64,000 nucleotides of DNA. It comes from the human T2T-CHM13v2.0 reference genome, Homo sapiens. Where the stretch lies: the NCBI RefSeq assembly GCF_009914755.1, contig NC_060925.1; one strand, written 5' to 3'. The stretch's first letter is position 1, and the number at the start of each line of letters is the position of its first letter. The notes under the pieces are model-generated. The model saw only the letters and a program-made list of their open reading frames with translations, was not told where the DNA came from and searched no databases. This document shows positions 9,378 through 15,850 of the stretch, one piece after another. The position numbers were made by a program, and so were the translations under genes.

Positions 9378-9576
9378 GCTACGTTTTTCATGTCTTTTAC
9401 ATTTTATCCTCTCTAAGCATTTTATTAGTTAAACCTGTTAGATAAAACAGATGTAACAAATAAATACAAATCTATTTGTTAGATCTGTTAGATTTGTTAG
9501 ATAAAATGTTCTCTAAGCATTTTATTTGTGAGGTCAATCCATACTGCTATGTGTATATCCAATCCCTTGTTTCTAG

Positions 9577-9979
9577 TGTAGGGGTGGAAAAATAGCTTTT
9601 TCTCTACCCACCCTGAAGGCTTACTGAAATCACTGACAATAGACAGATTAATAGGAGGAAAAGGCATCTAAATTTATTTAATATTCAGAAGCATGGTGGA
9701 GAATGATTACCTAATAACCCAACGAGGTCCAGATGCTTATATATGGTATTTCTTCACAGAAGAAGGGGAGATGGGGGGTAAAAAAGTAAATGATTTTCAA
9801 GGGAAGTAAAAGAGCCCAAAAATGGTGGTCTGAGAACAGTTCCTCTGAGCTCTGGGGAGGTGGTCGGAAGGTGTGGAGCAGAACTTTACTGAGAACAAAA
9901 GTTGTCTATTATGCAAATAAACTTTCTCAGGCAATTTCTTCAAGCTGTCCTCAGAAGAACAGATAAAAAGTCTGTCTGG
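9577..9979 (-). mobile_element. MER39/MER34-family LTR (ERV1), left part
   Basis: ttactgaaatcactgacaatagacagattaataggag...; continues at 13706. Confidence 0.8.
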
Positions 9980-12900
9980 CCACATTGTGATCAAATTAGA
10001 ATTTAGGATTAAGAAACTCACTCAAAACCGCACAACTACGTGGAAACTGAACAACATGCTCCCAGATGAATACTGGGTAAATAATGAAATTAAGGCAGAA
10101 ATAAATAAGTTCTTTGAAACCCATGAGAACAAAGACACAATGTACCAGCATCTCTGGGACACAGCTAAAGCAATGTTTAGAGGGAAATTTATAGCACTAA
10201 ATGCCCACAAGAGGAAGCAGGAAAGATCTAAAATCAACACCCTAACATCACAATTAAAAGAACTAGACCAGCAAGAGCAAACTAATTCAAAAGCTAGCAG
10301 AAGACAAGAAATAACTAAGATCAGAGCAGAACTAAAGGAGATAAAGACACAAGAAACTCTTCAAAAAATAAATGAATCCAGGATCTGGTTTTTTGAAAAG
10401 ATCGATAAAATACATAGACCACTAGCCAGACTAATAAAGAAGAAAACAGAGAAGAATCAAATAGACACAATATAAAATGATAAAGGGGATATCACCACTG
10501 ATCCCATGGAAATACAAACTACCATCAGAGAATACTATAAACACCTCTAAACAAATAAACTAGAAAATCTAGAAGAAATGAATAAATTCTTGGACACATA
10601 CACCCTCCAAAATCTAAACCAGGAAGAAGTCAAATCCCTGAATAGACCAGTAACAAGTTCTGAAATTGAGGCAAAAATTAATAGCCTACCAACCAAAAAA
10701 CGTCCAGGACCAGATGGATTCACAGCTGAATTCTACCAGAGGTATGAAGAGGAGTTGGTACCATTCCTTCTGAAAGTATTCCAATCAATAGAAAAAGAGG
10801 GAATCCTCCCTAACTCATTTTATGAGGCCAGCATCATACTGATACCAAAACCTGGCAGAGACACAACAAAAAAAGAAAATTTCAGGCCAATATCCCTGAT
10901 GAACATCAATGCGAAAATCCTCAATAAAATACTGCCAAACTGAATCCAGCAGCACATCAAAAAGCTTATCCACCATGATCAAGTTGGCTTCATCCCTGGG
11001 ATAAAAGGCTGGTTCAACATTCACAAATCAATAGACGCAATCCATCACATAAAACCAAAGACAAAAACCACATGATTATCTCAATAGATGCAGAAAAGGC
11101 CTTTGACAAAATTCAACAGCCCTCATGCTAAAGACTTTCAATAAAATAGGTATTGATGGAACGTATCTCCAAATAATAAGAGCTATTTATGACAAACCCA
11201 CAGCCAATATCATACTGAATGGGCAAAAACTGGAAGCATTCCCTTTGAAAACCAGCACAAGACAAGGATGCCCTCTCTCACCACTCTTATTCAACATAGT
11301 ATTGGAATTTCAGGCCAGGGCAATCAGGCAAGAGAAAGAAATAAAGGGTATTCAAATAGGAAGACAGCAAGTCAAATTATCTCTGTTTGCAGATGACATG
11401 ATTGTATATTTAGAAAACCCCATCATCTCAGCCCAAAATCTCCTTAAGCTGAAAAGCAACTTCAGCAGTCTCAGGATACAAAATCAATGTGCAAAAATCA
11501 CAAGCATTCCTATGCACCAATAATAGAAAAACAGAGAGCCAAATCATGAGTGAACTCCCATTCACAATTGCTACAAAGAGAATAAAATACCCAGGAATCC
11601 AACTTACAATGGATGTGAAGGACCTCTTAAAGGAGAACTACAAACCACTGTTCAAAGAAATAAGAGAGGACACAAACAAATGGAAGAACATTCCGTGCTC
11701 ACGGATAGGAAGAATCAATATCACAAAAATGGCCATACTGCCCAAAGTAATTTATAGATTCAATGCTATCCCCATTAAGCTACCACTGGCTTTCTTCACA
11801 GAATTAGAAAAAACTACTTTAAATTTCATATGGAGCCAAAAAAGAGCCCACATAGCCAAGGCAATCCTAAGCAAAAAGAACAAAGCTGGAGGCATCACGC
11901 TACCTGACTTCAAACTATACTACAAGGCTAAGTAACCAAGACAGCATGGTACTGGTACCAAAACAGAGATATAGACCAATGGAACAGAACAGAGGCCTCA
12001 GAAATAACACCATGCATCTACAACCATCTGATCTTTGACAAACTTGACAAAAACAAGAAATGGGGAAAGGATTCCCTATTTAATAAATGGTGTTGGGAAA
12101 ACTGGCTAGCCATATGCAGAAAACTGAAACTGGACCTCTTCCTTACACCTTATACAAAAATTAATTCAAGGTGGATTAAAGACTTAAATGTAAGATCTAA
12201 AACCATAAAAACCCTAGAAGAAAACCTAGGCAATACCATTCAGGACACAGGCATGGGCAAAGACTTCATGACTAAAACACCAAAAGCAATGGCAACAAAA
12301 GCCAAAATTGACAAATGGGATCTAATTAAACTAAAGAGCTTCGGCACAGCAAAAGAAACTCTCACCAGAATGAACAGGCAACCTACAGAATTGGAGAAAA
12401 TTTTTGCAGTCTATCCATCTGACAAAGGGCCAATATCCAGCATCTACAAAGAACTTAAACAAATTTACAAGAAAAAAACAACCCCATCAAAAAGTGGGCA
12501 AAGGATATGAACAGACACTTCTCAAAAGAAGACATTTATGCAGCCAAAAAACATATGAAAAAAAAGCTCATCTTCACTGGTCATTAGAGAAATGCAGATC
12601 AAAAGCATAATGAGATACCATCTCATGCCAGTTAGAATGGCGATCATTAAAAAGTCAGGAAATAACAGATGCTGGAGAGGATGTGGAGAAATAGGAACAC
12701 TTTTACACTGTTGGTGGGAGTGTAAATTAGTTCAACCATTGTGGAAGACAGTGTGGCGATTCCTCAAGGATCTAGAACCAGAAATACTATTTGACCCAGC
12801 AATCCCATTACTGTATATATACCCAAAAGATTATAAATCATACTACTATAAAGGCACATTCACATGTATGTTTATTGCAGCACTGTTCACAATAGCAAAG

Positions 12901-13331
12901 ACTTGGAACCAACCCAAATGCCCATCAATAATAGACTAGAGAAAGAAAATGTGGCACATATACACTGTGGAATACTATGCAGCCGTAAAAAAGATGAATT
13001 CATGTCCTTTGCAGGGGCATGGATGAAGCTGGAAACATCATTCTCAGCAAACTAACACAAGAACAGAAAACCAAACACGGCATGTTCTCACTCATAAGTG
13101 GGAGTTGAACAATGAGAACACATGGACACAGGGAGGGGAATATCACACACCTGGGCCTGTCAGTGGGTAGGAGGCTAGGGGAGTGATAGTATTAGGAGAA
13201 ATACCTAATGTAGATGACGGGTTGATGGGTGCAGCAAACCAACATGGCACGTGTATACCTATGTAACAAACCTGCACATTCTGCACATGTATCCCAGAAC
13301 TGAAAGTGTAATAAAAAAAAATTTAAAAAAA
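9980..13331 (+). mobile_element. 5'-truncated L1PA7-like LINE-1 (ORF2 from the end of EN through RT, 3'UTR and A-tail)
   Basis: ORF2 peptides ([35 protein letters not shown]); 3'UTR ...aatgtagatgacgggttgatgggtgcagc...; A-tail 13310-13331. Confidence 0.95.
9987..13108 (+). pseudogene. Disrupted L1 ORF2 (reverse transcriptase), multiple stops and frameshifts
   Basis: ORF track fragments 9987-10475, 10578-10943, 11125-11523, 11489-11935, 12253-12510, 12592-12939. Confidence 0.93.
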
Positions 13332-13705
13332 GACAGAGATTACAGATGTACTCAAATCAAATTGGCTTACTTGCCTATATTCTTGTTTTTCATGGATGTT
13401 GGCCCCTTAAGTCCTAGTTGCCTCAGCAACTCTCTAGAGCATTTACATATGAATATGTGTATAGGTGTGTATAATGTATGAAGAATTGTGGTACATTTAT
13501 ATGCTGTAAGCTACCCTATCCTAGTCAAAATAATGGGGATATAAATAGTTATAAAACTATATAGGTGATGCCATGCATTGTTTTTAAATAAGCACAGGTG
13601 TAATAAAGTAGGTGAGTTGATTACGAATTTAAATTTCTAAGAATTATTTTTGAAGGATCTCAGTAAATATAGTTTGAATGGTAAACATTTATAGATAAAA
13701 AAAAC
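13332..13705 (+). other. L1 3'-transduced segment plus second A-tract
   Basis: Non-L1PA, non-LTR sequence between the L1 A-tail and the downstream TSD aaaagcctgtctgg (13706-13719), which matches aaaagtctgtctgg (9966-9979). Confidence 0.8.
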
Positions 13706-14041
13706 AAAAGCCTGTCTGGGTATAGTGGGGACTCGGAGTCTCTTCTCTTCTCCTGTGGTTAATTTTTCCTAATTATTTGATGAGATTCCTAAGGAGGGGG
13801 TCTTAAGACAGTTACATTTCTTTTGGAAAGAAGCCTCCCTAGTCAGATAAGGAAATTCCAGAGAGAGTCCCTTGCTGCGCTTCAAAAATGAAAGAGGATC
13901 AGAGAGACAGAGGGGTGGGGGAGGGTCAGAGGGAGACCTTGGTTCTGAGGCTTAGTTCTGAGGCCTTTCAATTTCTTTAATTCAAAGCACTCAGCCTGCT
14001 AAAGTGCCATATTTTGGGGTATCTTTTTCTGAACCCCAACA
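13706..14041 (-). mobile_element. MER39/MER34-family LTR, right part
   Basis: Ends tgccatattttggggtatctttttctgaaccccaaca, the reverse complement of the TGTTGGGG.TCAGAAAA.GATACCCCAAAATATGGCA LTR start. Confidence 0.85.
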
Positions 14042-14044
14042 ACA

Positions 14045-15850
14045 GTACTCCATGGTGTACCCTTGCCACATTTAACATTACCTCTCCCTTTGTTATGGAC
14101 ACTTAGACTGCTTCCAGTTCCCTACTCTACAAAAGAGCTGCAATAAGCATCCTCATATATGTACCCATAAGGACCCCCTGTGGGAATTACTTTGGGATAC
14201 AGATACCGCAGTGAAATTTCTGGGTTATGTATGTAATCATTTTGTCACCAGATTGTTCTCTGGGGTGTCTGTATCTACACTTCTACAACTTTATACTTGT
14301 TGCCAGCTTAATGGACATAAAGCGGTAATTCCTTGATGTTTTATTTTGAATTTCTCTGTGAACTAATTATTTAAAAAATACTTCACATATTTGTTGGTCT
14401 TTTGGGTTCCCTCTTTTGCAAATTGCCTATCTTACCCTTCCCCTGTTTTTACTGAGGTTGTTTTTTTTATACTAGTTTGCAGGAATCCCTTAAATATCCT
14501 AAGTAGTGACTAGCTTAAACATAGGTATGTATTATATCAATCTTTTATATGTCTGTTGACTTTGTCAGTGGCTTCACATGATGACAAGTTGAGCTTAAGT
14601 TGAACTCTTAAGTTTTATATAATCAAATTATAAATTTCTTTTTAGTTCTATAGTTTATGCTTTTGGGGGTTTTAAATAAAACTCCCAAATTTCTTTCTAG
14701 TCTTTGGAATATATAGATATTCTGTTACATTTTTGTCTTTTAAGCTTATTTATTGCTTTCTCTTTTATTTTTAAGACTTTAATTTATCTGGAGCATAACT
14801 TTCTGGAGGTTTTAGGTAGGGATGTACAATTCTTTTCCTACCACCATCCAGTGAACCAATAGATGTCTATATGCTTTCTTTTCTGAAGTTTTATAGTATC
14901 CCTTAGAAGCTTATATGGAGCGTACCTCCTCGCCCCCATCTCTTTTTATCAAGGCTGATTCTGTTTGTTGATATTTATTCTTTCTTGTAAATGTTATAAT
15001 GTATTTATCAACTTCCTCATAAAAATTCAAACTAGCATTTTTATTAAAATTGCATTAAAAAAGAGAAGCTCTTTGACTTTTTACATCTCTAAAATATCTT
15101 TACTTTGCTCTCACATTTAATTGATAATTTGGCTGGGTATAGAACTCTATGTTGAAAATTATTTTCCCTGAGAACTTTAAAAGCACTGGCCCATTGGCTT
15201 CTAATATCTGCTGAGCTGATGAGAAGGCATCCTTTGCAGGTAACTCATTTTTCTTTCTGGAGGCTTTTAAAATCTTTTTGTTATGCTCAGAATTTTGACA
15301 TTTCAAAATTATGTGTTTAGCTATGCATCTTTTTTTCTTTTTAAGTTATCATGCTAGGCATTTTGTTTGTACTTTTAATCAGAAGACATGTCTTTTTTAA
15401 GCTCTGGGAAAATTTCTTGTATTATTTCTTTGATAATTTTCTCCCTTTTAGTTTCTTTTGTTTGTTTGTATTGTTTTTAGGTTTCTCTTTACGGAGCTTA
15501 TTAACTGGATGTTGGTAACCTTTGAATTTCTTTTCTTTTTTCATGACTTTGTTTCTTTGCTTCATTTCTATAAAATTTATTTGACTTTTTTTTAGTTCTA
15601 AGTATTTTATTTCAGGAATGATTTTAAATTTCTAGTATCTTTGTTTCCAATTTTTATTAATTAATTCTTTGTCATAGCACTCATTTTGTTTTGTGAAGGC
15701 AATACTTTTATTTACTGTAGGATTTAAAAATCATTTTCTTTTTTATCTGACTTATTTTGAAGTCATTTTGTCTATTTCTCTTTCATACTGTTTGTTCTCT
15801 TCATGTTTCTGGTCATCAGTGGCTATGTCTTCATATCTAAGAAAGCAGGA
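14045..15850 (-). mobile_element. Ancient L1ME/L1M fragments
   Basis: Degenerate L1 antisense motifs (gcaataagcatcctc, gaatttctctg, ttggctgggtatagaac); ORF 15100-15306 (KKILKASRKK...FNIEFYTQ) resembles L1 ORF1. Confidence 0.65.

What the first reader, a model, noticed from the sequence alone, without database searches (positions are those of the whole stretch)
9966..13719. L1 3' transduction: about 370 bp of foreign DNA carried inside the L1PA7 target-site duplication
Seen: a MER39-like LTR breaks at aaaagtctgtctgg (9966-9979). It resumes not after the L1 A-tail (13331) but about 375 bp later, at aaaagcctgtctgg (13706-13719). In between lies unrelated sequence (13332-13696) ending in a second A-tract, with AATAAA near 13602 and AGTAAA near 13662. 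Established: L1 read-through to a downstream poly(A) signal mobilises 3' flanking DNA. Inference: this segment tags the source L1 locus. It would be an old, well-preserved transduction, and the interrupted LTR defines the pre-insertion allele exactly. Caveat: 'agat' precedes both A-runs, so the TSD may be slightly longer and the second tail shorter.
Basis: partly seen in the sequence, partly recalled or inferred. Interest (0 to 1): 0.8.

Follow-up and report, generated by a model that had tools for sequence, protein, structure and literature searches.

The report
Ordinary L1 3' transduction, source lost
A truncated L1 retrotransposon on chromosome 1 carried along about 280-365 bases of unique DNA copied from another chromosome when it inserted into an old LTR; this is a clean but ordinary example of a well-known process.

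Summary
An LTR-like repeat is split at AAAAGTCTGTCTGG (9966-9979) and resumes at AAAAGCCTGTCTGG (13706-13719). In 10 of 19 paralogous LTR copies the two flanks overlap by exactly those 13-14 bases, and 13332-13705 matches 0 of 19.

Between the two copies lie:
- a 5'-truncated L1 (9980-13331; RVT_1 and ORF2p matches);
- a unique segment;
- a second short A-tail.

The segment has one paralogue in the whole assembly, at G000:C21:25582640-25582913. It matches window 13326-13611 with 20 substitutions in 263 sites plus one 10-bp indel. The C21 locus is single-copy on both sides and has no L1 within 16.9 kb upstream. Homology there starts at TT|AAGAAAG, an L1-endonuclease-like site.

Best reading (about 0.78): a 3' transduction from a source L1 allele that was later lost.

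Left open:
- the last 85 bp (13612-13696) match nothing I could find;
- the A-rich junctions cannot exclude a separate retrocopy nested in the L1 tail;
- primate orthologues could not be examined;
- the names "L1PA7" and "MER39" are unverified.

The phenomenon is textbook, so interest is low.

The parts
9575..9965 (.). Left part of the interrupted LTR-like dispersed repeat (starts TGTAGGGG)
   Evidence: blastn to 19 paralogous copies; left-flank alignments reach from query base 16 (=9575) to 9979
9966..9979 (+). 5' copy of the target-site duplication, AAAAGTCTGTCTGG (15 bp if the A at 9965 is counted)
   Evidence: the same 14 bases occur once in uninterrupted paralogues
9980..13312 (+). 5'-truncated L1 body, from just after the endonuclease domain of ORF2 through the 3' UTR; frame broken in several places
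   Evidence: RVT_1 E 1.2e-12; 11932-12510 matches human LINE-1 ORF2p chains, E 6.6e-100, residues 882-1065; the 3' end (12940-13331) is 90-93% identical to 39 scored genomic copies out of 7347 candidates
13310..13315 (+). The L1's own AATAAA poly(A) signal, read through under the best explanation
13313..13331 (+). A9-TTT-A7 tract between the L1 and the extra DNA. It is the source L1's tail and/or the start of the carried flank; the boundary is ambiguous
   Evidence: blastn extends the C21 homology back to 13326; per-column comparison
13326..13611 (+). Carried segment with a parental copy at G000:C21:25582640-25582913 (L002:1490-1765)
   Evidence: 88.5% over 286 columns; core 13339-13611 has 20 substitutions in 263 sites (K2P 0.081)
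13456..13465 (+). 10-bp indel relative to C21 (TGTGTATAGG, next to a near-repeat TGTGTATA)
13602..13607 (+). AATAAA, not used; C21 reads AACAAG here
13612..13696 (+). 85-bp end of the carried DNA with no match found anywhere; begins GTGAGT directly after ...GTAG
   Evidence: no match on C21 from -50 kb to +100 kb (the best 23-nt hit does not extend); none genome-wide; none in the window
13662..13667 (+). AGTAAA variant poly(A) signal, 29 bases before the second A-tract; the likely signal used
   Evidence: that AGTAAA works as a variant signal is recalled, not tested
13697..13705 (+). Second, terminal A-tail (A8C)
13706..13719 (+). 3' copy of the target-site duplication, AAAAGCCTGTCTGG
13720..14044 (.). 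Right part of the interrupted LTR-like repeat (ends ...CCCCAACA)
   Evidence: right-flank alignments reach query base 339 (=14044)

Best explanation
This is an L1 3' transduction. An active L1 once sat on contig C21 of this assembly (45,090,682 bases; chromosome 21 by my inference) immediately upstream of what is now G000:C21:25582640. Transcription ran past the L1's own weak AATAAA into the downstream flank, and the RNA was polyadenylated further on, probably after an AGTAAA.

That one RNA was inserted by target-primed reverse transcription into an old LTR on chromosome 1. The endonuclease nick was at GATA|AAAAG. Reverse transcription stopped early, leaving a 3.35-kb 5'-truncated L1. A 14-bp target-site duplication was made around the whole composite.

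The source L1 allele itself was never fixed, or was later lost, so only the empty C21 site survives. Sequence divergence puts the event roughly 25-40 million years ago.

Shown: the composite structure, the duplication, the continuity of the LTR, the single C21 paralogue and the absence of an L1 there.
Inferred: the read-through, the lost source allele, which poly(A) signal was used, and the date.
For: 1. One 14-bp duplication (13 of 14 identical) brackets L1 + tail + unique DNA + second tail. Directly after the L1 tail only AAAAG resembles it.
2. In 10 of 19 LTR paralogues the two flanks overlap by exactly 13-14 bases, and the inserted unique DNA matches 0 of 19.
3. The genome-wide search gave 2 candidates, both scored: the segment itself and one paralogue on C21, 89% identical over query bases 6-280. 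Local blastn places it at 13326-13611 = L002:1490-1765.
4. C21 is the parent. It is single-copy and continuous across both homology boundaries, while the chr1 copy is bounded by an L1 tail and by A-tail plus duplication.
5. C21 homology begins at ccctt|aagaaagaaACAG. This is a one-substitution variant of the TT/AAAA endonuclease motif (motif as quoted in bioRxiv 10.1101/2025.02.02.635956, passages read). That is expected for the start of a source L1's 3' duplication and is not expected for a random transcript end.
6. Ages agree. The segment differs from C21 at K2P 0.081, about 0.04 per lineage. The L1's last 370 bases differ at 17 of 370 sites (0.046) from the majority of its 10 closest relatives.
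7. AGTAAA lies 29 bases before the terminal A-tract.
8. Known L1 chimeras made by ligation or template switching carry the foreign RNA 5' of the L1, not 3' of its tail (passages).
Against: 1. No L1 lies next to the C21 paralogue. The nearest L1 3' end upstream is 16.9 kb away on the opposite strand; the nearest on the same strand is 24.5 kb away.
2. No sibling insertion carries the same tag.
3. The last 85 bp (13612-13696) are not on C21 within -50 to +100 kb. They were not found genome-wide by a loose search or by a 35-mer search with up to 3 mismatches. By my estimate that last search would find only about half of copies at 89% identity.
4. The tract between the L1 and the segment is A9-TTT-A7. 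The TTT may be homologous to C21's CTT, just upstream of the proposed nick. That fits a free-standing transcript slightly better than a source-L1 duplication starting at AAGAAAG (column list).
5. Both junctions are A-rich, so a second, short A-only duplication from an independent insertion would be invisible.
6. Co-insertion of the L1 and the segment could not be tested in other primates.
Confidence: 0.78

Rival explanations
1. Two events. The L1 inserted alone, and its tail directly abutted the 3' duplication. Later a 5'-truncated retrocopy of a polyadenylated C21 transcript inserted into that A-tail, producing a second duplication made only of A's.
For: - A-tails are good endonuclease targets (established knowledge, recalled).
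- AAAAAAAG at 13325-13332 and AAAACAAAAG at 13701-13710 could pass as a short second duplication.
- TTT at 13322-13324 may align with C21 CTT.
- No L1 lies at the C21 locus.
Against: - It needs a retrocopy of an otherwise unknown, non-repeated transcript. Rfam finds only Alu-related matches in L002, and no other copies of the segment or its C21 flanks exist.
- That retrocopy would have to land exactly at the end of this L1's tail.
- The C21 start of homology at an endonuclease-like TT|AAGAAAG would be a coincidence.
- The L1 and the segment look the same age.
- By my recalled estimate, roughly 10-20% of L1 insertions carry transduced DNA, far more than carry nested unique retrocopies in their tails.
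Confidence: 0.1
2. A chimeric retrocopy made in one event. Reverse transcription was primed on an unrelated polyadenylated RNA (or two RNAs, explaining the orphan 85 bp) and then jumped to the poly(A) end of an L1 RNA.
For: - It is a single duplication event.
- A pure A9 run follows the L1.
- The sharp break in C21 homology at 13611/13612 could be a template-jump point.
- Template switching by ORF2p is a proposed mechanism (passages).
Against: - Catalogued L1 chimeras have the partner RNA 5' of the L1 part. In those, reverse transcription starts on the L1 RNA, in line with cis preference. Here the order is reversed.
- The partner is not an abundant small RNA.
- No genomic source was found for the 85-bp piece.
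- The endonuclease-like motif at the C21 boundary would be unexplained.
Confidence: 0.06
3. A DNA-level event unrelated to retrotransposition, such as capture of C21 DNA during break repair or a small duplicative transposition next to a pre-existing L1.
For: Capture of chromosomal DNA at repair sites is described; I saw only the title and abstract of PMC2671141 in the listing.
Against: - The segment ends in an A-tract preceded by a poly(A)-signal variant.
- It sits exactly between an L1 tail and the 3' duplication.
- It is in the same orientation as expected for a read-through RNA.
- The LTR is otherwise restored to the base.
Confidence: 0.03

Closest known systems
L1 3' transduction (Moran et al. 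1999; Goodier et al. 2000; Pickeral et al. 2000; Szak et al. 2003). I saw these only as references in PMC9311842. Their content is recalled; two were requested and are not held.
   Same: L1 3' end with its own signal and A-tail, then unique non-L1 DNA ending in a second signal and A-tail, all inside one target-site duplication. The unique DNA maps to another chromosome. Its length (about 280-365 bp) is within the 7-997 nt range reported for polymorphic events (PMC9311842 abstract).
   Different: No L1 is present at the parental locus and there are no siblings. The last 85 bp do not map to the parental locus.
U6/L1, Alu/L1 and mRNA/L1 chimeric insertions (bioRxiv 10.1101/2025.02.02.635956, passages read)
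   Same: Two unrelated sequences, same orientation, one duplication, made by the L1 machinery.
   Different: In those chimeras the foreign part lies 5' of a 5'-truncated L1 and the insertion ends with the L1's own tail. Here the foreign part lies 3' of the L1 tail and has its own tail.
Retrocopy nested in the A-tail of an older element
   Same: A unique, polyadenylated sequence next to an A-tract.
   Different: No separate recognisable duplication. No known parent gene or transcript. The apparent age equals that of the L1.

Membership tests
L1 3' transduction | An L1 3' end with its own poly(A) signal and A-tract is followed by non-L1 sequence in the same orientation | tested here: met
   AATAAA 13310-13315, A9-TTT-A7 to 13331, then unique DNA; L1 identity
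L1 3' transduction | The extra sequence ends in a second A-tail preceded by a poly(A) signal | tested here: met
   AGTAAA 13662-13667 and A8C 13697-13705; that this variant hexamer was the one used is inferred
L1 3' transduction | The target-site duplication flanks the composite, not the L1 alone | tested here: met
   13 of 14 identical; flanks overlap by 13-14 bases in 10 of 19 LTR paralogues, and the insert is absent from 19 of 19
L1 3' transduction | Endonuclease-type target at the insertion site (TT/AAAA-like) | tested here: met
   GATA|AAAAG on the L1 strand, one position off TT|AAAA (motif as quoted)
L1 3' transduction | The extra sequence is a copy of unique genomic DNA from elsewhere | tested here: met
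   13326-13611 = G000:C21:25582640-25582913. Not met for 13612-13696
L1 3' transduction | The parental sequence lies directly downstream of a source L1 | tested here: inconclusive
   No L1 within 16.9 kb upstream in this single assembly, but the boundary is TT|AAGAAAG, as expected of an empty site. Absence today does not test presence about 30 million years ago
L1 3' transduction | The L1 and the extra DNA arrived together (shared presence or absence in orthologues) | not testable with these tools
   No primate genomes are available. The only indirect check is similar divergence, 0.04 against 0.046 per lineage
LINE-1 (L1PA lineage) | ORF2 reverse transcriptase and a primate L1 3' UTR | tested here: met
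   RVT_1; ORF2p E 6.6e-100; 90-93% identity to 39 scored copies. Subfamily 'L1PA7' not tested (no repeat library)
U6/L1-type chimeric retrocopy | The foreign RNA is fused 5' of the L1 segment, and the insertion ends with the L1 tail | tested here: not met
   The foreign DNA lies 3' of the L1 tail; definition
Independent nested retrocopy | Its own target-site duplication, distinct from that of the host element | tested here: inconclusive
   Only A-rich strings (AAAAAAAG / AAAACAAAAG) flank the segment
MER39 LTR | Match to the named family consensus | not testable with these tools
   No Dfam or RepeatMasker library. Shown only: a dispersed repeat of about 730 bp with TG...CA ends, 167 first-look candidates and 39 scored copies at 73-81% identity

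The most novel reading that the evidence does not exclude
The insertion is a three-part chimera built in reverse order to all catalogued L1 chimeras. Reverse transcription would have started on an unrelated polyadenylated RNA (the orphan 85 bp, whose source is absent from the assembly), jumped to a C21 transcript at 13611/13612, and then jumped onto the poly(A) end of an L1 RNA.

A milder variant is more likely, perhaps 0.4. In it, the 85 bp are a relic of chromosome 21 sequence, or of the lost L1-bearing haplotype, that has since been deleted and now survives only in this chr1 copy.
Probability: 0.06. Interest if true: 0.4.

Novelty: already known. Interest (0 to 1): 0.15.

Why it matters
This is a tidy worked example of L1-mediated movement of flanking DNA between chromosomes. 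The pre-insertion site can be reconstructed to the base from LTR paralogues, and the parental locus has been identified. It also shows a source element that no longer exists in the genome.

It does not change what is known. Such events are common among L1 insertions, and the carried DNA has no recognised function. The region is intergenic: the nearest annotated gene, LINC01761, is 15 kb away according to the hub table.

The only small open point is where the last 85 bp came from.

Tried and rejected
- **Spliced transduction.** The C21 homology ends at ...GTAG|GTGAGT in the window and at AAG|GTAGAG on C21, so I looked for a second 'exon'. blastn (word size 7) over C21 from -50 kb to +100 kb gave only a 23-nt hit 16.5 kb downstream. 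It does not extend and has no acceptor context. Rejected as chance.
- **A younger transposon on C21 displacing the tail.** The C21 DNA after the break is single-copy and the tail is not downstream. Rejected.
- **The tail copied from local chr1 DNA.** No match in the 64-kb window.
- **Genome-wide search for the tail.** A loose DNA search and a 35-mer search with up to 3 mismatches returned only the window itself. I did not type further neighbouring stretches, so the first half of the tail was not searched with mismatches.
- **The segment as part of the LTR.** 0 of 19 paralogues. Rejected.
- **C21 as the derived copy.** It has no A-tail or duplication, and unique DNA is continuous on both sides. 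Rejected.
- **A longer duplication including 'agat'.** The LTR does read AGAT before the A-run. But this would require an insertion with no A-tail plus an 8-base expansion inside the duplication. I judge a 4-base chance match more likely. Not excluded.
- **A known RNA gene in the parental locus.** Rfam finds only Alu-derived matches in L002, none in 1490-1765.
- **A distinctive A9-TTT-A7 tail shared by relatives.** It is not seen in 11 related L1 3' ends.
- **Szak 2003 and Pickeral 2000.** Not held.
Full report
**What is in the sequence**

- A repeat runs up to ...CAGATAAAAAGTCTGTCTGG (ending at 9979). L1 sequence starts at 9980.
- The L1 ends with ...GAACTGAAAGTGTAATAAA followed by A9-TTT-A7, up to 13331.
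- From 13332 to 13696 there is sequence that is neither L1 nor the flanking repeat.
- It is followed by A8C (13697-13705) and then AAAAGCCTGTCTGG (13706-13719).
- After that the flanking repeat continues (GTATAGTGGGG...).
- The two 14-mers differ at one position.

**Is the flanking repeat really one element split by one insertion?**

I searched the assembly with 9760-9979. There were 167 first-look candidates and 40 were scored: the window itself plus 39 copies at 73-81% identity. I kept 19 paralogous loci (L020-L038).

Local blastn of the left flank (9560-9979), the right flank (13706-14080) and the middle (13332-13705) against these 19 gave the following:
- In 10 of 19 (L020, L022, L023, L026, L027, L028, L030, L031, L032, L033) the last aligned base of the left flank and the first base of the right flank map so that they overlap by 13-14 bases. 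That overlap is exactly the duplicated 14-mer.
- In the other 9 the right-flank alignment starts 8-67 bases into the query. It is on the same strand and within 0-77 bases of the collinear position, so those copies neither add to nor contradict the base-exact result.
- The middle segment hit 0 of 19.

The ten paralogues printed side by side read ...AGAT[G/A/T] AAAAGTCTGTCTGG G/C... without a break. So the pre-insertion site is defined to the base, and T is the ancestral state at the one position where the two copies differ.

The repeat spans about 9575-14044 minus the insert, roughly 730 bp. It begins TG and ends CA, which is LTR-like. I could not check the name MER39, because no repeat library is available. 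L026-L028 are near-identical duplicates of one another, so they are not three independent witnesses.

**The L1**
- Stop-to-stop frames on the + strand include a piece matching Pfam RVT_1 (E 1.2e-12).
- Another piece (11932-12510) matches solved human LINE-1 ORF2p chains at E 6.6e-100, residues 882-1065.
- The element is 5'-truncated to about 3.35 kb.
- Its last 392 bases gave 7347 first-look candidates. The 39 scored non-self copies are 90-93% identical.
- It is therefore a primate L1 of intermediate age. 'L1PA7' is plausible but untested.

**Where the extra DNA comes from**

A whole-assembly search with 13332-13696 produced two candidates, both scored: the window itself and G000:C21:25582649-25582913, 89% identical over query bases 6-280. 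Local blastn and MAFFT place the homology at window 13326-13611 = L002:1490-1765. In the clean core (13339-13611) there are 20 substitutions in 263 aligned sites (13 transitions, 7 transversions; K2P 0.081) and one 10-bp indel at 13456-13465.

The C21 locus has these properties:
- It is unique DNA on both sides of the homology. L002:1160-1489 and L002:1766-2300 each found only themselves.
- It has no A-tail and no duplication.
- C21 is therefore the parent and chr1 the copy.
- No L1 lies next to it. In 150 kb examined, the nearest L1 3' end upstream is 16.9 kb away on the other strand, and the nearest on the same strand is 24.5 kb away.
- Homology starts at ccctt|aagaaagaaACAGATTACAG. TT|AAGA is one A-to-G change away from the TT/AAAA endonuclease motif (motif as quoted in the passages of bioRxiv 10.1101/2025.02.02.635956).

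**What does not fit neatly**

1. The last 85 bp (13612-13696) have no counterpart.
   - C21 diverges abruptly after ...GTAG (46% identity afterwards, i.e. random).
   - Nothing significant lies within -50 to +100 kb on C21. The one 23-nt hit does not extend.
   - Nothing was found genome-wide with a loose search or with a 35-mer allowing 3 mismatches. Nothing lies in the window.
   - These genome-wide searches are not exhaustive. At 89% identity I estimate the 35-mer search would succeed about half the time.
   - The simplest account is a later deletion or replacement on C21, or a difference on the lost L1-bearing haplotype. A template jump is the alternative.
2. The tract between the L1 and the segment contains TTT. 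This may correspond to C21's CTT just upstream of the proposed nick. That would suit a free transcript a little better than a source-L1 duplication starting at AAGAAAG. The region is too A-rich to decide. Eleven related L1 3' ends do not share this tail pattern.
3. There are no sibling insertions with the same tag.

**Mechanism**

Reverse transcription in an L1 insertion starts at the 3' A-tail next to the 3' duplication. So the first template copied was the RNA that ends at 13696 plus poly(A).

Either that RNA was continuous with the L1 (read-through, a 3' transduction), or the enzyme moved from a separate RNA onto an L1 RNA, or there were two separate insertions.

I favour read-through (0.78) for these reasons:
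- the structure meets the structural hallmarks I list for that class;
- the parental boundary looks like an L1 target site;
- the L1 and the segment appear equally old, at 0.046 against about 0.04 substitutions per site per lineage. The ten L1 relatives were chosen for closeness, so 0.046 is a lower estimate;
- catalogued chimeras have the opposite order of parts;
- read-through is far more frequent than the alternatives. About a quarter of tumour L1 insertions carry a transduction according to the abstract of PMC13009371 (listing). The 10-20% figure for genomic L1s is recalled from Goodier 2000 and Pickeral 2000, which I could not read.

The missing source L1 is expected rather than surprising for an old event, since active elements are usually young, unfixed alleles (inference).

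**Age**

K2P 0.081 between the two copies lies between the human-macaque and human-marmoset neutral divergences as I recall them (about 0.065 and 0.11-0.12). That puts the event very roughly 25-40 million years ago. It is compatible with the recalled ages of L1PA6-L1PA8 (Khan et al. 2006, not seen).

**Comparison with what is known, and verdict**

This is a standard L1 3' transduction with an identifiable parental locus and a lost source. But the event is of a well-documented, common kind, and the carried DNA has no evident function. Novelty: already known. Interest: 0.15.

I did not check whether this particular locus is listed in published catalogues, because the early ones are not held and no supplements were consulted.

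Noticed in passing
window 13609-13617: A perfect 5' splice-site consensus (AG|GTGAGT) sits exactly where the homology to C21 ends. No downstream 'exon' was found on C21, so it is probably coincidence.
   Followed up: partly
L002:847-1157 (G000:C21:25581995-25582305): A full Alu with a long A-tail, flanked by the direct repeat AAAACTCTATTTTT, lies 330 bp upstream of the parental segment. Rfam reports SRP-, mir-1268- and mir-3135-like matches there, all below the gathering scores.
   Followed up: partly
L026, L027, L028 (G000:C1 at 148.89, 142.93 and 121.08 Mb): Three copies of the LTR-like repeat are nearly identical to one another at the junction and in their blast coordinates. They look like copies within large segmental duplications of chromosome 1 rather than independent insertions.
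   Followed up: no
L041 (G000:C24:1883191-1883580) and L042 (G000:C23:1818971-1819360): Two L1 3' ends with identical sequence and flanks on contigs 23 and 24, as expected for the pseudoautosomal region of X and Y.
   Followed up: no
window 9410-9530: Just upstream of the LTR there is a small cluster of direct repeats (TCTCTAAGCATTTTATT at 100-bp spacing; GTTAGAT-containing units at 50-59 bp) and a 20-nt hairpin (9446-9489).
   Followed up: no
window 13164-13331: The last ~170 bp of the L1 (3' UTR and tail) are not in the hub's list of repeat-masked stretches (which names only the longest), although they are 90-93% identical to thousands of L1 3' ends.
   Followed up: no
window 13456-13465: A 10-bp difference from C21 (TGTGTATAGG beside TGTGTATA). 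It looks like a slippage duplication in the chr1 copy or a deletion on C21.
   Followed up: no
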